34,850 bases of DNA from a virus (IMGVR_UViG_3300038673_000123:1-34850); one strand, 5' to 3'; counted from the first letter of the stretch, positions 3,005 through 18,260 are shown. The notes: generated by a model from the sequence alone, not told the origin. Numbers and translations: made by a program.

Positions 3005-3234
3005 GCGACGCTCCCGAATCCGCCAAGACCCAGTGTGAGCGCCTGCTCGAACACCTCAAACTCGGCCTGCCGTTGACGCATCGCAAAGCCGAGATCGGCT
3101 ATGGGGTCCAGCGTCTTGCCGCACGCATGTACGATTTGAAGCAGCTCGGCCACCAGATCGAAAAGCGGATGGTGGAGGTGCCGACGAGGGATGGGAGGCG
3201 GGCGAGGGTGGCGGAATATTTTCTACAGGCATGA
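3001..3234 (+). CDS. Winged-helix DNA-binding protein (HTH_39-like)
   Basis: TQCERLLEHL...RLAARMYDLKQLGHQI...VAEY pattern; GGAGG RBS. Confidence 0.75.
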   Translation: MSDAPESAKTQCERLLEHLKLGLPLTHRKAEIGYGVQRLAARMYDLKQLGHQIEKRMVEVPTRDGRRARVAEYFLQA

Positions 3235-3269
3235 AAAAAGCCCCGGCGCTGTGACGAGCAATCCGGGGC
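3234..3269 (-). terminator. Rho-independent terminator on the antisense strand
   Basis: GCCCCGG/CCGGGGC stem (3240-3246/3263-3269) preceded by A6 on + (U6 on -). Confidence 0.5.
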
Positions 3270-3292
3270 GAAACAAAAAGGACGGGAAAACG

Positions 3293-5581
3293 ATGTACCA
3301 AGAAAACGGCAATGTCAAGAGCTACACGGACTTCTTGGCTGAGAAGGTTGTCTCTGCGCAACCACTCGGCTTCGACGTGGCAATCGAGGACCTCAACCCC
3401 GCGTTGTTCGACTGGCAAAAGGTGGTCGTGCAGTGGGCAATCAAACGTGGCCGCGCTGCGCTGTTTGAGGCGTGTGGGCTCGGCAAAACCCTGCAACAAC
3501 TCGAATGGGCGCACCAGGTCCACCGATTGACCGGCGGCGACGTGCTCATTCTCGCCCCCCTGGCCGTGTCTTCGCAGACCGTGCGCGAAGGGGCAAAGTT
3601 TGGCATCACGGTCAACAAGTGCCGCAAGCAGTCAGATGTGCGTCCAGGCGTCAATATCGCCAACTACGAGATGCTTGACCACTTCGACGCATCCCACTTC
3701 GCGGGAGTCGTGCTGGACGAATCGTCCATCCTTAAGGGATTCACCGGCAAGATGCGCAACCAGATATGCGCGGCCTTCGCTAATACCCCGTACAGGCTCG
3801 CCTGCACTGCGACACCGGCACCGAATGACCACATGGAACTGGGCAACCATTCCGAGTTCCTAGGCATCATGCCCAACGTCAACATGCTCTCGACATGGTT
3901 CGTCAATGACGGATTCGAGGCTGGCAAATGGCGGCTCAAGGGCCACGCGGCATCCGATTTCTGGCGTTGGGTTTCGACATGGGCAGTCTGTCTTTCCAAG
4001 CCTTCCGACATGGGATTTGATGATGCCGGATACAAACTCCCAGAACTGCGCACAATCAAGCATCACGTCGGTGAAGAGTTCGAGTGCAAGGGCGGCCAAC
4101 TCATCCGCACGCACGCCCCGAGCGCCACGGACCTGGGCCGGGAGCTTCGCGCAACCATCGACATCAGAGCCGACAAGACCGCAGAAATTGCCGCGTCCAC
4201 CGAAGGCCCGGTCCTGATTTGGGTCAACCTCAACGACGAGGCAGAATCCGTCCTGGCTCGCATACCCGAGGCAAAGCAAATCACCGGCTCCATGAGTACG
4301 GACGCCAAAGAGCAAGTCATTTCCGACTTCGTGGATGGGCGTCTGCGCGTGCTCATCGGCAAGCCTTCCATCTGCGGTTTCGGCATGAACTTCCAGCACT
4401 GCGCCGACATGGTTTTCATGGGGCTGTCCTACTCGTTTGAGCAGCGCTACCAGGCCGTGCGCCGGTGCTGGCGATTCGGCCAGACTCGGCCGGTCAATGA
4501 CCATGTTGTGATGAGCGCGTCTGAAGCCAAGATTTTTGAGAAGGTCCACCAGAAGGAGTTGAAGCACATGGAGATGGAGCAGGAAATGAGCGTTGACGTT
4601 GCCTTGACTCACGAAGCCCGTAATCAGTCACAGGGCATGGAGTACCAGCGACGTGAAGTCAGGGGCAAGGACTGGACGCTCGTGAACGGCGATTCCTGCA
4701 AAGAGATCCAAAACATCGAATCCGACTCCATGGGATTTTCCATCTTCTCCCCGCCGTTCTCGTCTTTGTTCGTCTACTCCGATTCCATCCGCGACATGGG
4801 CAACTGTGAATCCGACGAACAGTTCTTTCAGCACTTCGCGTTCCTCGTTCCTGAACTCCTGCGCATCACTATGCCGGGGAGGTTGTGCGCCGTCCATTGC
4901 TCCCAGATTCCGGCCCACAAATGGAAGGACGGAGAGATGGGGCTGAAGGATTTTCGCGGCGACATCATCCGCACATTTCAAAAGGCCGGATGGGTCTATC
5001 ACTCCGAGGTTTGCATCTGGAAGGACCCGGTAGTCGAGATGCAGCGCACAAAGGCGCTCGGGCTCCTGCACAAGCAAATCAAAAAGAACTCGGCAATGTC
5101 CCGCGTTGGGATGCCTGATTACCTAGTTGTCTTCCGCAAGCCGGGTGAAGTCGTCGCCCCTGTCGAACGCCCCAACGGATTCAACCCACGCGCCTACATC
5201 GGAACCGAGGGCGAAGAGTGTCAGACGAGCATCGACGTGTGGCAGAGATACGCTTCCCCTGTCTGGCACGACATCAACCAGACCAACGTCCTCAATGTCA
5301 GGGTGGCCAGGGCAGAGAAAGACGAGCGCCACCTGTGCCCGCTCCAACTCGACGTAATCGAAAGGGCAATCCACCTTTGGACCATCCCAGGGGATACGGT
5401 TTTTACTCCATTCCTGGGCATCGGTTCAGAGGTTTACAGCGCCGTCAAACTCGGGCGCAAGGGCTACGGAATTGAACTCAAACCCGAGTATTTCAACCAG
5501 GCCGTGCAGAATCTCAAGTCCCTGGATGCTGACAAGCGCCACCTGTCCCTCTTGTCCCTCATGCAGTCGGAGGTGGCGTAA
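3293..5581 (+). CDS. SNF2-type helicase fused to a beta-class N4/N6 DNA methyltransferase
   Basis: CGLGKT, LDESS, TATP, QAVRRCWRFGQ helicase motifs; FSPPF catalytic motif then PFLGIGS SAM motif. Confidence 0.88.
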   Translation: MYQENGNVKSYTDFLAEKVVSAQPLGFDVAIEDLNPALFDWQKVVVQWAIKRGRAALFEACGLGKTLQQLEWAHQVHRLTGGDVLILAPLAVSSQTVREGAKFGITVNKCRKQSDVRPGVNIANYEMLDHFDASHFAGVVLDESSILKGFTGKMRNQICAAFANTPYRLACTATPAPNDHMELGNHSEFLGIMPNVNMLSTWFVNDGFEAGKWRLKGHAASDFWRWVSTWAVCLSKPSDMGFDDAGYKLPELRTIKHHVGEEFECKGGQLIRTHAPSATDLGRELRATIDIRADKTAEIAASTEGPVLIWVNLNDEAESVLARIPEAKQITGSMSTDAKEQVISDFVDGRLRVLIGKPSICGFGMNFQHCADMVFMGLSYSFEQRYQAVRRCWRFGQTRPVNDHVVMSASEAKIFEKVHQKELKHMEMEQEMSVDVALTHEARNQSQGMEYQRREVRGKDWTLVNGDSCKEIQNIESDSMGFSIFSPPFSSLFVYSDSIRDMGNCESDEQFFQHFAFLVPELLRITMPGRLCAVHCSQIPAHKWKDGEMGLKDFRGDIIRTFQKAGWVYHSEVCIWKDPVVEMQRTKALGLLHKQIKKNSAMSRVGMPDYLVVFRKPGEVVAPVERPNGFNPRAYIGTEGEECQTSIDVWQRYASPVWHDINQTNVLNVRVARAEKDERHLCPLQLDVIERAIHLWTIPGDTVFTPFLGIGSEVYSAVKLGRKGYGIELKPEYFNQAVQNLKSLDADKRHLSLLSLMQSEVA

Positions 5582-9626: not shown

Positions 9627-10154
9627 ATGGGATTGACAGACAAGCAGCGCGTTTTCGTCAAGGAGTACATGCTTGACCTGAACGCGACACAAGCGGCGAT
9701 TCGTGCCGGGTACAACGAGAGGTCTGCCAGGTCTCAAGGGCAACGGCTGTTGACAAATGATGACATTCAAAAGGCGCTTCAGTCAGAACTTGCAAACAGG
9801 TCGCAGCGCGTAGCCGTTACGGCCGACCGCGTCCTTTCCGAAATCGCCAAGATTGCGTTTTCTGATGTGCGTAAAATTTTCAATGCCGATGGCTCGCTGA
9901 TCCCCATATCGAGTCTCGACGACGAAGCGGCCGCGTGCATCGCCGGATGTGACCTTGTGACGGTCAACAAGGGCGAGGGCGAGGTTGAGTATGTCGCAAA
10001 GGTCAAGATGGCCGACAAGCTCAAGGCTCTTGAACTCGCCGGAAAGCACCTCGGATTGTTCAAGGAAAACCAAGGCGCCGAAGACTTGCCGATGCCTACA
10101 CGCTTAATCGTAGAGGTCGTGGATGGACGTAAGCCAGCCCTACCGGCTGAATGA
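9627..10154 (+). CDS. terS: Terminase small subunit
   Basis: LTDKQRVFVKEYMLDLNATQAAIRAGY; KLKALELAGKHLG. Confidence 0.93.
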   Translation: MGLTDKQRVFVKEYMLDLNATQAAIRAGYNERSARSQGQRLLTNDDIQKALQSELANRSQRVAVTADRVLSEIAKIAFSDVRKIFNADGSLIPISSLDDEAAACIAGCDLVTVNKGEGEVEYVAKVKMADKLKALELAGKHLGLFKENQGAEDLPMPTRLIVEVVDGRKPALPAE

Positions 10155-11436
10155 TCGACAGGCCGAGTTCTTTCAGCTTCAGACGAAGTTCCGTGCCTAT
10201 GTGGCCGGGTTCGGCGCTGGGAAGACGTGGGCCGGGTGCGCTGGTCTGTCCAGACATTTCTTCGAGTTCCCCGGTGTGAGTGCTGGTTATTTCGCGCCAA
10301 CGTATGCCCAGATCAGGGACATCTTTTATCCGACCGTCGAGGAGTCTTTCCAAGGCTTCGGGCAGGTCGCCAAGGCCCGCGTAGGCAATCACGAGGTGGA
10401 CGTGTACCGGGGCCGGAAATACATCGGCACCGTGCTTTGCAGGTCCATGGATGATCCCGCGTCCATAGTCGGATTCAAGATCGGGCACGCCGTCGTTGAC
10501 GAGATCGACGTGATGACCTCCGACAAGGCGCGGACTGCATGGCGCAAGGTCATTGCCCGTATGCGCTATAAGATCGACGGACTGCGCAACGGGATTGACG
10601 TAACGACGACGCCGGAAGGCTTCAAGTTCACCTATGAGCAGTTCGTCAAACAAGTGCGCGAGAAGCCAGCATTGGGCGGCATGTACGCCATTATCCAGGC
10701 CAGCACCTACGACAACGAGAGGTTCTTGCCAGACGACTACATCCCGTCTCTCCGCGCATCCTACCCGCCGCAACTCATCGATGCCTACATCAACGGCCAG
10801 TTCGTCAACCTGCAAACCGGGTCCGTCTATTCGGCCTACAACCGCGAGCTGAATGATTGTCGAGACACGATCCAGCCAGGCGAAATCCTCTACATCGGCA
10901 TGGACTTCAACGTGGGCAAGATGGCGGCGGTGATACACGTCAAGCGCGACGGGATGCCCAGGGCCGTGGACGAGATAATCAACGGCTACGACACGCCCGA
11001 CATGATCCGCAAGATCAAGGATCGTTATTGGCGGCACGATGGCCGTGCCTACGTTTCGACGTGCCAGATCCGCGTTTACCCGGACGCCAGCGGTGACAGC
11101 CGGAAGTCCGTCAATGCGTCCACAACAGACATTGCAATGCTGCGCAACGCGGGATTTGGTGTGTTCGCACCGGGTAGCAACCCGCCCGTCAAGGACCGCA
11201 TCAACGCCATGAACGCCATGTTCTGCAACGCTGACGGACAGCGGCGCTACCTTGTCAACTCCGAGAAGTGCCCTACATATGCCGAGGCTTTACAGCAGCA
11301 GGCGTGGGCGGACAATGGAGAGCCAGACAAAACAAGTGGGCACGACCATTATGTTGACGCGGCTGGATATTTTGTGAACTACGAATACCCAATCAACGCC
11401 CGCCGCACCACATCCACCACAATCTCCATGCGATAG
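10123..11436 (+). CDS. terL: Terminase large subunit
   Basis: AGFGAGKT Walker A, VVDE Walker B, TTTPEG, IGMDFN nuclease, DHYVDA. Confidence 0.95.
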   Translation: MDVSQPYRLNDRQAEFFQLQTKFRAYVAGFGAGKTWAGCAGLSRHFFEFPGVSAGYFAPTYAQIRDIFYPTVEESFQGFGQVAKARVGNHEVDVYRGRKYIGTVLCRSMDDPASIVGFKIGHAVVDEIDVMTSDKARTAWRKVIARMRYKIDGLRNGIDVTTTPEGFKFTYEQFVKQVREKPALGGMYAIIQASTYDNERFLPDDYIPSLRASYPPQLIDAYINGQFVNLQTGSVYSAYNRELNDCRDTIQPGEILYIGMDFNVGKMAAVIHVKRDGMPRAVDEIINGYDTPDMIRKIKDRYWRHDGRAYVSTCQIRVYPDASGDSRKSVNASTTDIAMLRNAGFGVFAPGSNPPVKDRINAMNAMFCNADGQRRYLVNSEKCPTYAEALQQQAWADNGEPDKTSGHDHYVDAAGYFVNYEYPINARRTTSTTISMR

Positions 11437-13557: not shown

Positions 13558-15078
13558 ATGGAAGACAATTCGAAGATCGCGCAGAGGGCGCCGGAGTGGA
13601 GCGAGCAGAAGGCCGCGCTGGAACTGCCGGATACGCTACTCGGAGGCACCAAGGCCATGCGTGCGGCCGGAACGCGGTACCTCCGCAAGGGTGAGGCTGA
13701 AGCGCAGGCCGACTACGATTTGCGCCTGCACTCCACGACGCTGACGGACAGCTATCCTCGCACGCTCAACTTTCTGACCGGGCAGGTGTTTTCCAAGGGC
13801 GTGACGCTCGAAGACGAGACTGCCGAAATCCAGGCGCTGACCGAGAACATCGACAACAAGGGCAACAATCTTTCGGTGTTCTCGGCACGGGCTTTTCGCA
13901 GCGGCCTGCACGCGGGCGTGTCGTTCATTTTGGTGGACTTCTCCAAGGTCAAGACCCGCGAAACCGAGAACGGGCGTGAGTACCTGGCAGACGAAGAAAC
14001 AGATACTTGGAAGCCCCGCACCCTGGCCGCTGCGCAGGAAAACGGGTGGCGTCCCTACTGGGTGCTCATTGAGGCCGGGTCCGTCATCGACGTATGGACG
14101 CGGATCGTCAACGGCGTGCAGGTGATTGAGCAGTTCCGCTACTTCGAACCAGCCGTGGTTGAGGATGGCCCTTGGCAGCGCAAGGCTAAGACCGAGCGCA
14201 TCCGCGTCCTTCGGCCAGGATCGTGGGAGGTCTGGGAGGAGCAGGAAGGGAGCGACCGGAAAAAGGCGTGGATGAAGGTGGACAGCGGGACGACCGACTT
14301 GGATGTTATTCCAGTGGCCGCGTTCATCCCCGGCGAGAGCAAGAGCGAATACACCGCGCTCCCGGCCCTGCAAGGTTTGGTGGACCTGTGTGAAACGCAT
14401 TGGCAGGCGTCGAGCGGTCATCGGCACCTCATGGACTGGGTGCGGCGACCGGCCTTTTTCGGCAAGATGCTTGGCATGGGCGACGGGACGCCAGTGGCCT
14501 TCGGCCCGAATCGGCTGATTGAGAGCTACAGCCCCGACGCGGATCTCAAATCGGTGGGCGTGGACTCTGCCAGCGTCGAGGCCAGCCAAGGAGATTTACA
14601 GCGCATCGAATCCGCGATGGCCCTCTACGGCCTGCGACTGCTCATGCCCCGCTCCGGCAACACGACGGCCACGCAGCACACCCTTGAATCTGCCGAGTCG
14701 GACAGCGCCCTCAAGCGGTGGGCAAAGGCGTTCGAGGATTGCCTCGAAAGGTGTTTTCAGTTCACAGCCATGTGGATGGACATCAAAATGACGAAGGCGG
14801 CAGGCGCAAAACTGAACGATGACTTTGCGAAGGTCTTTGACCCAGAAGTGGCCAGAATGGTCATTGAGGCCGTTACGGGCAGAATCTTCCCCCGAGAGAT
14901 GGCCTATGATTCTCTGAAGTCTATTCTTCCGGTGCGGGACGATCTCCCGTACAAAGAGGCGGTGCTGATGATGGAGAACGATGACCGGGCGACTCGGACG
15001 GGGATGTCCCTTGACGCACAGACGATAGCGAAGGGGACTCTCGGTCAGACACAGGGACAGGCACAAGGGCCGACATGA
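13558..15078 (+). CDS. Portal protein (DUF4055-like)
   Basis: LGGTKAMRAAG..YL, NIDNKGNNL, RPYWV; 506 aa; lies before MuF. Confidence 0.88.
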   Translation: MEDNSKIAQRAPEWSEQKAALELPDTLLGGTKAMRAAGTRYLRKGEAEAQADYDLRLHSTTLTDSYPRTLNFLTGQVFSKGVTLEDETAEIQALTENIDNKGNNLSVFSARAFRSGLHAGVSFILVDFSKVKTRETENGREYLADEETDTWKPRTLAAAQENGWRPYWVLIEAGSVIDVWTRIVNGVQVIEQFRYFEPAVVEDGPWQRKAKTERIRVLRPGSWEVWEEQEGSDRKKAWMKVDSGTTDLDVIPVAAFIPGESKSEYTALPALQGLVDLCETHWQASSGHRHLMDWVRRPAFFGKMLGMGDGTPVAFGPNRLIESYSPDADLKSVGVDSASVEASQGDLQRIESAMALYGLRLLMPRSGNTTATQHTLESAESDSALKRWAKAFEDCLERCFQFTAMWMDIKMTKAAGAKLNDDFAKVFDPEVARMVIEAVTGRIFPREMAYDSLKSILPVRDDLPYKEAVLMMENDDRATRTGMSLDAQTIAKGTLGQTQGQAQGPT

Positions 15079-15149: not shown

Positions 15150-15171
15150 AGGCCGGGAGACCGGCCTTTTT
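15150..15171 (+). terminator. Rho-independent terminator between portal and MuF
   Basis: AGGCCGG-GAGA-CCGGCCT followed by a T-tract. Confidence 0.7.
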
Positions 15172-15183
15172 CATGGGGTACGG

Positions 15184-17262
15184 ATGGATAAGACGCAAGC
15201 AGACCTTGACCTGTATTTTCTGACCAGGAACGTCATTTGGCGTTACAAGTTGGACCAGTACGAAGACGCCACGATCCGCGAGATGCTGAAAACGGTACGC
15301 TCTGCCGTGTCGGAGATCAAGCGCGAGATTTTTGATGGGGATGCGCCCGCGAATGCCGATGCACTCATCGAGGAGCTTGACGACCTGTCCGCTGGCCTGC
15401 GCCGGAAGATAGGCGAGGACGTGGCGGCCATGTCCGGCGTGGCTGCGGAGTACAGCGCGACCGAGCACGCGGCCATCATGTCCCTTGACGGGCGCGTGCC
15501 GATCAACACCGTGGCTTTGAGCGCTGCGCAGTTCCAGAGCTTCCTGGGCGGCTCGAACGGCGGGACTCCCCTGCCCCAATGGGTTGACGATGCCTGGGGC
15601 CACGTCGTGAGTGACCAGATCAAGCGCAACCTTAACGTCGCCGTCTTGAGGGGCGAAGGCTATCAAAAAGCCGTGCGCGGGTTGCTCGACTCTACCATCG
15701 CCGATTTCACAGAGAGGGAGGCCGTGACCATTGCGCGAACGTATGTGCAGACTGCCAACGTGGCTGCTCAAATGGCCGTGTACCAGGCCAACGATGACCT
15801 GGTGAAGGGTTGGCGGTGGTCGTCTGTGTTGGAGCCGGGGTATAGCAAGAGCGGGCGCGGGACGTGCCTACGCTGTCAAAGTTTGGATTCGAGAGAATTC
15901 AAACTAGGCGAAGGCCCTAATATCCCACTACATCCCAGATGCGTGACGGGCGACACCCTGATATCTGCGCCGGGCGTGGTTGCCGCTATAAAGATAAAAT
16001 ACTCCGGGCCAATCATAGATATCCGCATTGACAACGGGCGCACCCTTTCTTGTACTCCAAATCACAGGATAATGACCGACAGAGGCGTGAAGTTTGCCGG
16101 GGACTTGGAGCAAGGAGACAAGGTTCTCTACGACAGCGCCCATGTTGACAACCTGCATGGGGAAAAAAATCACTACGGGCTTCCAACCAGAGCGGAAGAC
16201 ATATTCCATTTTTTCTCTGACCGTTTCAAACTTATTATCAGAAAGCCAACTCCTACCGGTGTAGACCTCCACGGCGACGAGCAGTTTGTTGACGGCGATA
16301 TCGACGTTGTAGCGCCCGAAAGCCTTTTGCGGGGTGACTTCGAAACCCTTCTCTTTCAAGACCTGAAGGATATGTTTCTCCCCAGCGCCAACGTGTGTGA
16401 CGTGTTTCTCGCGGGCCTTCGCAAGAGCACATCTATGCTCGTAAGAATGGGACTTTCCGCGCAGAGCATTAGCCGTTTTTTGAGCGTGTTCGATGCGCTC
16501 TTGCTCGGTCATTCTGGCGTACCTGAGCCGGGTACACTCTGCCGTAGTGCGTGGCTTGATTCCAGCCTCAACAAGATTGCGCCGGATGGTTCCTTCGTTA
16601 GTTCCGAAGTGATCGCCGATTTCATACGCACTAAGGCCGCTGGCGTACATGGTGACAATTTCTTGGACGGGCAACTTGATAGAATTTGGATGCTCTGCTC
16701 CAGCCTTTCGGCACTTCATGGCAGAGGTTCTTTTGTCGTTGAACGTGACGCCCTGTCTAACGAGGGCACTTTTGACTGGCTTTCTTCCCCATCCGAGGAT
16801 GTCGCAAATCTCTTTCTGAGTCTTTCCAGCAGCGTAAAGTTGTGCAATGTGGATTTCGTCGGAAGGCGTAGCTTTAATGGGCATGTTTATGACCTCCAAA
16901 GTATATCGTCAACGTATTACAACGAAGGCATGTTGTCAAGCAATTGCAGGTGTGTTGCATTGCCAATAACCAAGACATGGCGCGACCTCGGCATCGACCG
17001 AGACGAGATAGAGGACGCCATCCGCCCGTACACCATCCGGCCAGACGTGAACATCGACGCGGGCGGGATGCGGACCATCATCGAGTCCGGGCGGCACCAG
17101 GGGGATTATGCGTCGTGGTGGGCGAAGCAGGACAAGGCCTTCCGTGTGAATGCGGTAGGCCCTGGCAGGTTTGAGCTTTTGGAGTCGGGGAAGATCAGCT
17201 TTTCTCAGTTGGTTGATTCACAAGGCCGCCAGCGCACATTGAAGGAGCTTCGCAGCCTCTAG
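15184..17262 (+). CDS. Minor head protein (MuF/SPP1 gp7 family) precursor containing an intein; 357 aa after splicing
   Basis: TIART, CLRCQSLD; splicing restores the HPRCRC motif. Confidence 0.9.
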   Translation: MDKTQADLDLYFLTRNVIWRYKLDQYEDATIREMLKTVRSAVSEIKREIFDGDAPANADALIEELDDLSAGLRRKIGEDVAAMSGVAAEYSATEHAAIMSLDGRVPINTVALSAAQFQSFLGGSNGGTPLPQWVDDAWGHVVSDQIKRNLNVAVLRGEGYQKAVRGLLDSTIADFTEREAVTIARTYVQTANVAAQMAVYQANDDLVKGWRWSSVLEPGYSKSGRGTCLRCQSLDSREFKLGEGPNIPLHPRCVTGDTLISAPGVVAAIKIKYSGPIIDIRIDNGRTLSCTPNHRIMTDRGVKFAGDLEQGDKVLYDSAHVDNLHGEKNHYGLPTRAEDIFHFFSDRFKLIIRKPTPTGVDLHGDEQFVDGDIDVVAPESLLRGDFETLLFQDLKDMFLPSANVCDVFLAGLRKSTSMLVRMGLSAQSISRFLSVFDALLLGHSGVPEPGTLCRSAWLDSSLNKIAPDGSFVSSEVIADFIRTKAAGVHGDNFLDGQLDRIWMLCSSLSALHGRGSFVVERDALSNEGTFDWLSSPSEDVANLFLSLSSSVKLCNVDFVGRRSFNGHVYDLQSISSTYYNEGMLSSNCRCVALPITKTWRDLGIDRDEIEDAIRPYTIRPDVNIDAGGMRTIIESGRHQGDYASWWAKQDKAFRVNAVGPGRFELLESGKISFSQLVDSQGRQRTLKELRSL
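15928..16884 (-). CDS. Antisense-encoded putative homing endonuclease (2x HTH + NUMOD3-like + Vsr/DUF559-like nuclease), 318 aa
   Basis: Y..G.T/S..EI...G repeats; RGKSHSYEHR; GEKHI..L...G...QKAFGRYNVDIA...VAVEV; GGAGGT RBS 7 nt before ATG. Confidence 0.85.
   Translation of the reverse strand: MPIKATPSDEIHIAQLYAAGKTQKEICDILGWGRKPVKSALVRQGVTFNDKRTSAMKCRKAGAEHPNSIKLPVQEIVTMYASGLSAYEIGDHFGTNEGTIRRNLVEAGIKPRTTAECTRLRYARMTEQERIEHAQKTANALRGKSHSYEHRCALAKAREKHVTHVGAGEKHILQVLKEKGFEVTPQKAFGRYNVDIAVNKLLVAVEVYTGRSWLSDNKFETVREKMEYVFRSGWKPVVIFFPMQVVNMGAVVENLVSLLQVPGKLHASVGHYPVIWSTRKGAPVVNADIYDWPGVFYLYSGNHARRRYQGVARHASGM
15940..16944 (+). mobile_element. Intein (335 aa, residues 253-587) in MuF
   Basis: Block A CVTGDTLI, block B CTPNHRIMT, block F HVYDLQS, block G SN|C; lower-GC sequence than flanks. 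Confidence 0.92.
16911..16939 (-). promoter_or_regulatory. Sigma70 promoter for the antisense endonuclease, inside intein codons
   Basis: TTGACA (16939-16934)-17 nt-TACGTT (16916-16911). Confidence 0.65.
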
Positions 17263-17455
17263 GCTTGATGCGCACCGTGACTACGTCTGCCAAGTCAGGA
17301 CCAGACCAAACAAGCAATTCTGCGTCCGTGTCGTCATTGGCTAGATCGTGCAGCCTCGCTTCCCTCGCCACGTCTTCAACCGTGTCATACAAAAGCCCCT
17401 GAAACTCGACCTTTCCATTCATCCATCGCGCTTCAAGCGTGACCATCTTTTTCAT
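17195..17455 (-). CDS. Hypothetical protein (MKKMVTLEAR...)
   Basis: AAGGTGG RBS; lies between duplicated MuF 3' ends. Confidence 0.55.
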   Translation of the reverse strand: MKKMVTLEARWMNGKVEFQGLLYDTVEDVAREARLHDLANDDTDAELLVWSGPDLADVVTVRIKPRGCEAPSMCAGGLVNQPTEKS

Positions 17456-17538
17456 ATTCACCACCTTTTGAGTTTGGCGACCTTGTTGATTCACAAGGCC
17501 GCCAGAGGACGCTGGAGGAGTTGGGGAGGTTACGCTAA
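17212..17538 (+). repeat. Duplicated MuF 3' end (21-bp identical core at 17212-17232 and 17485-17505)
   Basis: GTTGATTCACAAGGCCGCCAG twice; LVDSQGRQRTLKELRSL* versus LVDSQGRQRTLEELGRLR*. Confidence 0.85.
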
Positions 17539-17732
17539 ATCTCAATGTCGATTCGCACGGCGATGGACGCAATGCGCTGTCTCCACATTTGGCCGCTCGT
17601 GTCAATCATTGATTCGACATCAGTCCGAATGTCTATGCGTTGTGGGTCAATCTTCGATGCGAGATCGTACAGGATGCGAGTGATGTCTGCCTCTGCCTTG
17701 TGCTTCAGTTCCTTTGCTTCGTTGATATTCAC
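17535..17732 (-). CDS. Hypothetical protein
   Basis: GGAGGT RBS, GTG start overlapping the HTH gene stop. Confidence 0.55.
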   Translation of the reverse strand: MNINEAKELKHKAEADITRILYDLASKIDPQRIDIRTDVESMIDTSGQMWRQRIASIAVRIDIEI

Positions 17733-17908
17733 TTCCCCACCTCCTTTGTCTTTATCAAAAACAGCTCCCACTTAGCCCCGTCCATCGTCCGCCCTCCCCC
17801 CTCCCAGTACCGCCACGCCCTCGGCTGGACACCGACCAGCGCGGCGGCTTGGGACTGCGTGAGGCCCGCACGGTGGCGGGCTTCGCGGATGTCGGTGGGG
17901 CTAGGCAT
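17729..17908 (-). CDS. Small XRE-family HTH regulator
   Basis: IREARHRAGLTQSQAAALVGVQPRAWRYWEGG. Confidence 0.85.
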   Translation of the reverse strand: MPSPTDIREARHRAGLTQSQAAALVGVQPRAWRYWEGGGRTMDGAKWELFLIKTKEVGK

Positions 17909-18260
17909 CTTCGTCACCGCATAGCCTATCAATAGTGCTGAACGCAGAGCCAATCATATCCGGGACGCTGATGTATCCAAGTTGCACGCCGTTTCTGATG
18001 AACTTTACAAGTTCTTCGTTTTCCTTTTTCAGTTCACAAAGGCCCGCAACGCAATCGTCGACCGTAAATCCGTGTTCGCATGTTCCGGCCACTTTGATAA
18101 AGCCCATCCCGCGTAGTGCGAAAAGAACGCTGTCAATGGCTTCCATGGATGGATTGTCAATGTCTGCGGCAACGCGTTGGACATTCTGGATAAACCCAGG
18201 ATCAAAGAACCAACCCATTTTAGCCGACTTCTCGTCTGCTTGCGGAACGTGTTTTACCAT
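17901..18260 (-). CDS. Hypothetical protein
   Basis: AAGGAG RBS; accessory operon. Confidence 0.65.
   Translation of the reverse strand: MVKHVPQADEKSAKMGWFFDPGFIQNVQRVAADIDNPSMEAIDSVLFALRGMGFIKVAGTCEHGFTVDDCVAGLCELKKENEELVKFIRNGVQLGYISVPDMIGSAFSTIDRLCGDEDA

What the first reader, a model, noticed from the sequence alone, without database searches (positions are those of the whole stretch)
16882..16944. Intein splicing-motif codons double as the promoter, RBS and start codon of the antisense gene
Seen: block F H-V-Y-D-L-Q is coded CAT GTT TAT GAC CTC CAA, which on the reverse strand reads GGAGGT-7 nt-ATG (a perfect SD plus start). Codons TTG TCA AGC just before the terminal Asn give a consensus TTGACA -35, 17 nt from TACGTT. 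The penultimate residue is Ser rather than the usual His, and its first base is part of that -35 box. Inference: protein-splicing and gene-expression constraints overlap on the same ~60 bp, and a host sigma70 promoter would allow early nuclease expression.
Basis: partly seen in the sequence, partly recalled or inferred. Interest (0 to 1): 0.85.

Follow-up and report, generated by a model that had tools for sequence, protein, structure and literature searches.

The report
Splicing codons spell antisense gene's promoter
A self-splicing insert (intein) in a phage head gene carries a predicted DNA-cutting gene on its opposite strand, and across about 200 relatives the codons of the intein's own end motifs are chosen so that, read backwards, they spell that gene's start codon, ribosome-binding site and a likely promoter, although no transcript or protein has yet been measured.

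Summary
A 335-aa intein (15940-16944) in a MuF/gp7 head gene holds an antisense 318-aa HTH-HTH-Vsr-like nuclease ORF that starts at the block-F His codon. This layout is published (Gosselin et al., bioRxiv 2025); its expression signals are not discussed in the text I searched. This scan noted the same idea three times before, on other DNA.

In homologues picked by protein motif, the SD-forming Leu codon is CTC in 114 of 121 (29% background; 9 of 81 in ordinary inteins). An antisense sigma70-like promoter occurs in 73 of 131, against 7.6 expected after synonymous recoding. A set picked on the nuclease alone repeats this (65 of 109 vs 4.8; His start in 104 of 109).

Two promoter designs exist: TTGACA from x-Ser-Ser-Asn or Val-Lys-Asn ends (the window's type), and an extended -10 from Ile-Ile-Thr-His-Asn ends.

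Limits: the window's own -10 is weak (TACGTT, 9 of 12 overall). Its nuclease lacks the EDxHD His. No RNA start was measured. Early timing, and the promoter as the cause of the His-to-Ser change, are unproven.

The parts
15184..17262 (+). Host gene: MuF/SPP1 gp7-type head morphogenesis (minor capsid) protein, 692 aa including the intein; it follows the portal-like gene 13558-15078 and the terminase genes
   Evidence: PF04233 E 1.9e-6; terminase PF03237/PF17289 at 10123-11436
15940..16944 (+). Intein, 335 aa, HPR|C...SSN|CRC; the ends are predicted with high confidence, the middle is low-confidence filler
   Evidence: (pLDDT 87-98 for residues 1-70 and 94-98 for 301-335; many segments under 50 between 130 and 274)
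16054..16065 (+). Intein block B TPNH (T39, H42), overlapped by the C-terminal part of the antisense ORF
15928..16884 (-). Antisense ORF, 318 aa, codon-for-codon antiparallel to the intein: two HTH domains, a helical linker and a Vsr-like nuclease domain (E169, D195, E206); it ends 4 codons inside the N-extein
16882..16884 (-). Start codon ATG = block-F His codon CAT
   Evidence: His at this position or 1-4 codons upstream in 104 of 109 nuclease-selected relatives vs 8 of 81 ordinary inteins
16892..16897 (-). Shine-Dalgarno GGAGGT = Asp-Leu-Gln codons GAC CTC CAA, 7 nt before the ATG
16904..16904 (-). Predicted transcription start (about 7 nt after the -10; 20-nt leader). Inferred, not measured
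   Evidence: 20 nt is the commonest leader for this promoter type, 15 of 22
16911..16916 (-). -10 box TACGTT (3 of 6) from Ser-Thr-Tyr codons; positional homologue of TATAAT/TACAAT/TATACT in relatives
16934..16939 (-). -35 box TTGACA from block-G codons TTG TCA AGC (Leu-Ser-Ser)
   Evidence: TTGACA in 25 of 41 Ser-Ser-Asn inteins
16942..16947 (+). Terminal Asn and +1 Cys of the splice junction

Best explanation
The last 21 codons of this intein encode splicing blocks F and G on the + strand and, on the - strand, the start codon, the Shine-Dalgarno sequence and a likely sigma70 promoter of a predicted Vsr-like homing nuclease, which would let the intein express its own mobility enzyme independently of the phage head-gene transcript. 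Shown: the overlap, the intact antisense ORF, selection on that ORF's protein, and family-wide synonymous constraint on exactly the bases that form the signals. Inferred: host RNA polymerase starts near 16904, ribosomes initiate at 16884, the nuclease cuts intein-free MuF alleles at or near the HPx|CRC site, and repair copies the intein. All signals lie inside the intein, so they travel with it. Two solutions exist in the family: -35/-10 promoters from x-S-S-N and V-K-N ends (this window), and extended -10 promoters from I-I-T/A-H-N ends, which need no -35 from the extein. The likely origin is exaptation: both His codons read backwards as start codons, and D/N-L codons can read as GAGG.
For: (1) Motif-selected set, 131 non-redundant loci: CTC in 114 of 121 Leu codons vs 29% in their C-exteins and 9 of 81 in ordinary inteins; CAT in 104 of 131 vs 39%. 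(2) Antisense promoter-like site in 73 of 131 vs 7.6 (maximum 14 in 300 synonymous recodings); sense strand 6 vs 6.5; ordinary inteins 4 of 81 vs 2.6. (3) Independent set selected on the nuclease motif only: 134 of 138 loci with enough DNA lie antiparallel, in register, inside an intein. SD in 66 of 80 vs 17.7; promoter in 65 of 109 vs 4.8, and 35 of 76 vs 3.3 for loci absent from set 1. (4) Window class (S-S-N): TCA 29 of 41, AGY 40 of 41, TTGACA 25 of 41; wobble A for the -7 T in 32 of 37 vs 25 of 92 in H-N inteins. (5) Nearby four-fold sites are unconstrained. (6) Where the His is missing from its usual place (29 of 109), a His sits 1-4 codons away in 24, 22 of them CAT, and the CTC share drops to 6 of 12 Leu. 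(7) 95 of 95 complete antisense proteins are homologous and D195 is invariant; the profile hits I-Bth0305I 3R3P at E 1.3e-4; in 4 pairs the core keeps 54% identity in the nuclease frame vs 37% in the intein frame. (8) Mobility: one contig joins the exteins without the 1005-bp intein (run X10); P0013 has a 90% N-extein but a 30% intein, P0006 74% and 79%. (9) In close relatives the listed differences fall at 16878, 16887, 16905, 16917 and 16941, none inside the four boxes (19 weaker differences not shown).
Against: No RNA start, strand or protein was observed; the public runs are contigs only. The window's -10 is 3 of 6 and fails my own threshold. 58 of 131 and 44 of 109 relatives have no site passing that threshold. 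Only 9 of the 24 shifted starts have an SD of -5 kcal/mol or better. The window's nuclease has Trp where 54 of 99 relatives have the His that is a proposed general base in I-Bth0305I, and no conserved final Asp, so its activity is open. Foldseek's top hits are Vsr and 3R3P, but none reaches E 0.001. Sequences are related, so binomial p-values overstate support. The control inteins are lower in GC (0.42 vs 0.55). His and Gln were fixed by the pattern in set 1. G-H-I-Y-D-L also occurs in a solved intein chain of only 186 aa (2JMZ), so the His may predate the nuclease.
Confidence: 0.8

Rival explanations
1. The family trait is real, but in this particular phage the promoter and nuclease are decaying: the weak -10 and the missing catalytic His mark a relic.
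For: -10 is TACGTT, unique among 41 S-S-N inteins. No His follows E206 in the window or in its two nearest loci L158 and L166. Truncated antisense ORFs occur in the family: L018 171 aa, L127 41 aa, L484.
Against: The ORF is intact over 318 aa, and homologues at 50-81% keep it open with the same N-terminus. The -35, the -7 T, the SD and the ATG show no listed differences in close contigs. Intein and extein histories disagree in this very clade.
Confidence: 0.12
2. The start codon and SD are real, but the promoter-like boxes are incidental, and the nuclease is transcribed by read-through from a - strand promoter downstream.
For: About 40-45% of relatives lack a site that passes my threshold. The window has - strand ORFs just downstream (17195-17605, 17729-17953).
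Against: Two different promoter designs each show constraint at their own wobble bases (ATA in 54 of 73 Ile codons in H-N ends; TCA, AGY and wobble A in S-S-N ends), on the antisense strand only.
Confidence: 0.05
3. The His and the odd block-G residues are kept for splicing chemistry (the block-F His standing in for the missing penultimate His), and the reverse-strand signals are by-products of protein motif and codon usage.
For: GHIYDL occurs in an unrelated solved intein (2JMZ). Penultimate Ser or Ala is known in DnaE inteins (PMC5874633).
Against: Protein-level selection cannot choose among synonymous codons. The recoding null holds the protein fixed and gives 7.6 vs 73. The His moves by 1-4 residues in 24 loci and is equally present when the penultimate His is kept.
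Confidence: 0.03

Closest known systems
Inteins with anti-sense VSR-like homing endonucleases in actinobacteriophage minor capsid (MuF-like) genes; Gosselin, Arsenault, Gogarten, bioRxiv 10.1101/2025.01.02.630785 (passages and sections 12 and 15 read; supplements closed)
   Same: Same architecture and host-gene type. The window's antisense protein hits MuF-like genes of Gordonia phages such as Fosterous, Affeca and Angelicage, and the REQ3 minor head gene that the paper names.
   Different: The main text has 0 hits for 'promoter', 'start codon', 'ribosome', 'penultimate' and 'synonymous'. [quoted passage not shown] Here the start lies in block F and the ORF runs through block B in 74 of 74 full inteins. 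It calls the architecture rare; here it is found in hundreds of contigs from many phyla and in 115 phage records.
I-Bth0305I / EDxHD homing endonuclease family (Taylor et al. 2011, PMC3239194, passages) and E. coli Vsr
   Same: Two N-terminal HTH-type modules plus a C-terminal Vsr fold; profile hit to 3R3P at E 1.3e-4; top fold hits 1CW0, 1VSR, 3R3P.
   Different: I-Bth0305I sits in a group I intron, on the sense strand. The window's protein lacks the motif His and final Asp.
Cyanobacterial dnaX intein with out-of-frame LAGLIDADG nuclease (bioRxiv 10.64898/2026.09.14.751524; first of four parts and one passage read), and the ShiLan hidden HNH (PMC11855218, passages)
   Same: Nuclease in a separate frame inside an in-frame insertion; putative SD motifs are noted for dnaX.
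   Different: Same-strand frames and other nuclease families; no promoter is discussed (0 hits in both). ShiLan has no splicing domain and no SD.
Anti-sense LAGLIDADG inteins of Gordonia phages Nordenberg and Lennon
   Same: Antisense, in-register nuclease ORF in a MuF intein.
   Different: The start lies about 20 codons upstream of block F, with no His at F1 (one lineage, two records). The block-F trick is therefore not general to antisense nucleases.
T4 intron endonucleases I-TevI, II, III with their own promoter and SD inside the intron (PMC2988022, passages)
   Same: The mobile element carries the expression signals of its nuclease.
   Different: The signals lie in non-coding intron RNA, use phage middle or late promoters, and are held back until late. 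Here they are overprinted on protein-splicing codons.

Membership tests
Class 1 intein (HINT) | N-terminal Cys/Ser, block B TxxH, block F Asp, terminal Asn, +1 Cys/Ser/Thr | tested here: met
   C1, T39-P-N-H42, HVYD, N335, +1 C
Class 1 intein (HINT) | HINT fold | tested here: met
   Profile hits 21 PDB sequences, nearly all named inteins or intein host proteins, best E 4.8e-10. Model termini have pLDDT above 90. All listed fold hits are HINT domains, best E 1.1e-3.
Class 1 intein (HINT) | Penultimate His (usual, not obligatory) | tested here: not met
   Ser here; His 100, Ser 85, Lys 15 among 207 relatives. Ser or Ala is known in DnaE inteins (PMC5874633).
Class 1 intein (HINT) | Splices in vivo; an intein-free allele exists | tested here: inconclusive
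   Intein-free allele seen (X10; also P0027 'HPNCRC'). Splicing itself is not testable here.
Anti-sense VSR-like HEN intein (Gosselin 2025) | Intact intein with a VSR-like ORF on the opposite strand, in a minor capsid gene | tested here: met
EDxHD homing endonuclease | Vsr-fold catalytic domain after HTH/NUMOD modules | tested here: met
   (fold E-values 1.6e-3 to 9.5e-3, above 0.001)
EDxHD homing endonuclease | Motif E and first D | tested here: met
   E169 in 95 of 99, D195 in 99 of 99. The mapping to I-Bth0305I is by profile position and my reading, not residue by residue.
EDxHD homing endonuclease | Motif His and final Asp | tested here: not met
   The window has W213 where 54 of 99 have His, and no conserved Asp at 218-222. 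Not filed as an EDxHD member; it works like one at most.
EDxHD homing endonuclease | Cleaves the insertion-free allele; homodimer | not testable with these tools
   No assay; no complex job sent
Sigma70 -35/-10 promoter | TTGACA, 17-nt spacer | tested here: met
   6 of 6 and 17 nt. The consensus is established knowledge, also used.
Sigma70 -35/-10 promoter | -10 close to TATAAT | tested here: inconclusive
   TACGTT is 3 of 6, with the key T, A, T kept; the homologous position is TAnnnT in 31 of 37
Sigma70 -35/-10 promoter | Measured transcription start | not testable with these tools
   Only contigs are held

The most novel reading that the evidence does not exclude
In this large phage intein family the promoter has reshaped the splicing chemistry. 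Repeated switches from an extended -10 (keeping the catalytic penultimate His) to a -35/-10 promoter forced His to Ser or Lys, so DNA-level selection for expressing the mobility enzyme drove the loss of a conserved splicing residue several times. The result is a 1-kb element that is at once a splicing domain, an overprinted nuclease gene (through block B) and its own transcription unit, active whenever host RNA polymerase sees the DNA, including in lysogens.
Probability: 0.35. Interest if true: 0.8.

Novelty: new variant of a known kind. Interest (0 to 1): 0.62.

Why it matters
The 2025 description of antisense-nuclease inteins left open how such a hidden gene is expressed. This gives a specific, base-level answer that synonymous changes can test directly. 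It shows regulatory signals overprinted on catalytic protein motifs. It offers a non-chemical reason for 'conserved' intein residues (the block-F His, the penultimate Ser or Lys). It also means that many annotated phage head genes, including dozens of Salmonella phage records (62 of the 115 hits), hide an unannotated nuclease gene and a likely antisense promoter. Recoding such inteins or phage genomes would silently remove these signals.

Tried and rejected
Protein-based locus scans gave no useful homologues: searches found one HTH-only locus each, and the deep alignment had no searchable stretch.

Alternative -10 boxes in the window: TATACT (16905-16900) has no -35 at 17-18 nt, and its first base is changed in close relatives. 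TGTAAT is only 12 nt from TTGACA. Both rejected.

An SD-sequestering hairpin: predicted for the window's leader (-6.6 kcal/mol), but across 144 loci it is no stronger than recoded leaders (-6.60 vs -6.86, p 0.15; SD pairing 0.57 vs 0.56). Not a family feature.

A -35 in the extein for extended -10 promoters: only 1 of 30 reaches 4 of 6. Rejected.

Convergent use of block F by other nucleases: not seen in Nordenberg and Lennon.

Phylogenetic test of penultimate residue vs promoter type: 4.5 pairs the same way, 0.0 opposite, 3.5 no difference, of 8; p about 0.06. For the extended -10, p 0.6; for S-S-N/V-K-N, p 0.25 (quick tree). Not significant.

Expression: runs X3, X4, X5, X8, X10 and X19 are contigs and cannot show strand, start or level. 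X19 is an RNA library holding a related intein, which is not evidence of transcription.

Rows dropped. Set 1, 172 matches: 8 without a recognised intein end (one, L133, probably real with longer spacing), 2 with short antisense ORFs, 30 redundant, and L183 removed by hand. Set 2, 239 matches: 18 not nuclease homologues, 83 with too little DNA, 4 without an open intein frame, 24 redundant, and L463 mis-registered. Controls, 120 loci: 101 ends, 81 unique.

Literature: 8 full-text searches found no paper describing these overlaps. Subscription journals and bioRxiv supplements were not searchable; the Gosselin supplement on sequence conservation could bear on this.

Full report
Observation. The window is a phage record with terminase, portal-like, MuF/gp7 head morphogenesis, coat and tape-measure genes. 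The MuF gene (15184-17262) holds a 335-aa intein between HPR and CRC. Its model has confident HINT termini and a low-confidence middle, and its profile matches solved inteins. On the - strand a 318-aa ORF runs from the block-F His codon (16884) to 15928, codon for codon against the intein. It models well up to residue 260 (mean pLDDT 83) as two HTH domains, a helical linker and a Vsr-like domain. The top fold hits are Vsr and I-Bth0305I, though weak, and the family profile hits 3R3P at E 1.3e-4. Upstream lie GGAGGT (7 nt from the ATG), TACGTT and TTGACA (17 nt apart). TTGACA-17-TAnnnT occurs only here in the window. The -10 is weak and the standard scanner missed the site.

Cultured phages. 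tblastn found 115 phage records, and I fetched 15 spread over hosts. In 12 of 15 the block-F His codon is CAT and opens the antisense ORF. In Idiomarinaceae phage 1N2-2 the His lies 3 codons upstream, with AGGTG before it. In REQ3 the start lies further into the intein. In Acinetobacter phage IME285 the nuclease stands free beside an intein-less MuF gene.

Test 1, homologues selected by protein motif. A degenerate F-x-G-H-V-Y-[DN]-[LF]-Q-[STC] pattern, blind to synonymous choice, gave 171 loci. With the window, 162 of 172 matches had an intein end and an antisense frame open from the His codon for at least 200 aa or to the edge of the DNA; 131 remained after de-duplication. All 95 complete antisense proteins are homologous to the window's. 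The Leu codon that makes the SD is CTC in 114 of 121, against 29% in the same loci's C-exteins. In 81 ordinary inteins (V-Y-D-L-T-V-x3-H-N-F) it is 9 of 81, His at that place is 1 of 81, and none of 80 has a long antisense frame from that codon. A promoter-like site (at least 10 of 12 for -35/-10, or TGn plus at least 5 of 6) lies on the antisense strand of the intein end in 73 of 131. Synonymous recoding with GC-binned usage gives 7.6 (maximum 14 in 300 rounds). The sense strand (6 vs 6.5) and the controls (4 vs 2.6) are at null. His and Gln were fixed by the pattern here, so a second set was needed.

Test 2, homologues selected on the nuclease only. The motif Q-K-A-x-G-x-Y-N-x-D gave 239 matches, 221 of them true homologues. 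Of 138 with enough upstream DNA, 134 lie antiparallel and in register within an intein. Among 109 non-redundant loci, His is at the window's position in 80 (68 CAT) and within four codons upstream in 24 more (22 CAT): 104 of 109 against 8 of 81 controls. An SD is present in 66 of 80 (null 17.7) and a promoter in 65 of 109 (null 4.8), or 35 of 76 for loci new to this set (null 3.3). Where the His has moved, the CTC bias relaxes and in some loci a new SD appears before the new His, but only 9 of 24 shifted starts have a good SD.

Two promoter designs. Among 207 pooled loci the penultimate residue is His in 100, Ser in 85 and Lys in 15. -35/-10 promoters occur in 3 of 100, 37 of 85 and 12 of 15; extended -10 promoters in 44, 16 and 2. 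In the window's S-S-N class the first Ser is TCA in 29 of 41 and the second AGY in 40 of 41, giving TTGACA in 25. Seventeen bases on, the hexamer is TATAAT in 14, TACAAT in 5 and TATACT in 3. The wobble base giving the -7 T is A in 32 of 37, against 25 of 92 in His-Asn inteins, whose promoter lies elsewhere. His-Asn inteins instead use the Ile codon ATA in 54 of 73 (21% background) to spell TGnTATAAT. Neighbouring Gly, Ala, Val and Arg codons are spread over all synonyms, which argues against mere shared ancestry, although the sequences are related and the binomial p-values overstate the case. The penultimate class changes at least 18 times on a quick tree of 95 nucleases. The link with promoter type, however, rests on 8 independent pairs and is not significant (p about 0.06).

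The nuclease and mobility. D195 is invariant and E169 and E206 nearly so. The window lacks the His found in 54 of 99 and shows no final Asp, so it is Vsr-like and EDxHD-related but not filed as a member. In four pairs of relatives the core keeps 54% identity in the nuclease frame and 37% in the intein frame. The nuclease ORF crosses block B in 74 of 74 full inteins, where an Ile codon is ATA in 32 of 34, giving a conserved Tyr. A contig joins the two exteins with exactly the intein's 1005 bp missing. Exteins and inteins are shuffled among close relatives, as expected of homing.

Mechanism. Most likely the element is self-contained: host sigma70 polymerase starts near 16904, a 20-nt leader carries GGAGGU, the nuclease is made apart from the head-gene transcript, cuts intein-free alleles, and the intein is copied in. 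Overlap, selection and allele pattern are shown; transcription, translation, cleavage and timing are inferred. My estimates: start and SD real 0.92; promoter real in the family 0.87; the window's promoter active 0.65; early expression as the selected benefit 0.4. T4 homing nucleases are late (PMC2988022), and terminase genes hold 293 inteins while most inteins in that survey carry in-frame LAGLIDADG nucleases. On the other side, Gosselin et al. note that minor-capsid inteins all had non-canonical nucleases. Because the -35 lies 5 bp from the C-extein, half of the presumed target, autorepression as in I-TevI is conceivable; this is speculation.

Novelty. The architecture is published (Gosselin et al. 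2025). In the parts read it says the secondary ORFs lie typically outside the splicing domain and gives no expression signals. Eight literature searches found no account of the overlaps; supplements were closed. Three earlier notes of this scan, on other genomes, reached the same reading. I saw them after my tests; they are unchecked AI notes and not independent support. Verdict: real, a new variant of a known kind, directly testable; interest 0.62.

Noticed in passing
L009:455-2055 (Acinetobacter phage vB_AbaM_IME285): A homologous Vsr-like gene stands free, convergent with an intein-free MuF-like gene, yet keeps an intein-like H-V-H relic and an extended -10-like box at its start; possibly a nuclease that outlived its intein or an intronless-homing form.
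   Followed up: partly
window 15928-16065; 74 full inteins: The nuclease ORF overprints the N-terminal splicing region too: it passes block B in 74 of 74 and passes the first Cys in 10; block-B codons are biased towards a Q/E-Y-R-V-I-x-G motif on the other strand.
   Followed up: yes
window 17213-17262 and 17486-17540: The 3' end of the MuF gene is repeated about 270 bp downstream with a different ending (LVDSQGRQRTL...), flanking a short cassette; it resembles an exchangeable C-terminus. A relative contig carries the second version as its gene end.
   Followed up: no
run X10 contig over window 15184-17400: The intein-free allele differs at 124 of 684 positions upstream of the site but at only 9 of 457 downstream, suggesting recent recombination at or near the insertion site.
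   Followed up: no
P0029: The same type of intein occurs in a 1099-aa protein fusing a portal domain (PF04860) to a MuF-like domain.
   Followed up: no
L006, L010, L013 and other Salmonella and Pantoea phage records: These records annotate only the head protein; the antisense nuclease ORF with a perfect TGTGCTATAAT box is unannotated.
   Followed up: partly
window 3191-5581: A 796-aa protein fusing an SNF2-type helicase to an N6/N4 DNA methylase.
   Followed up: no
window 15150-15177: A terminator-like hairpin with a T run between the portal-like gene and the MuF gene on the + strand.
   Followed up: no
L018, L127, L484: Relatives with a premature stop in the antisense ORF; L018 keeps TTGACA-17-TACATT, SD and ATG, useful for studying decay.
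   Followed up: no
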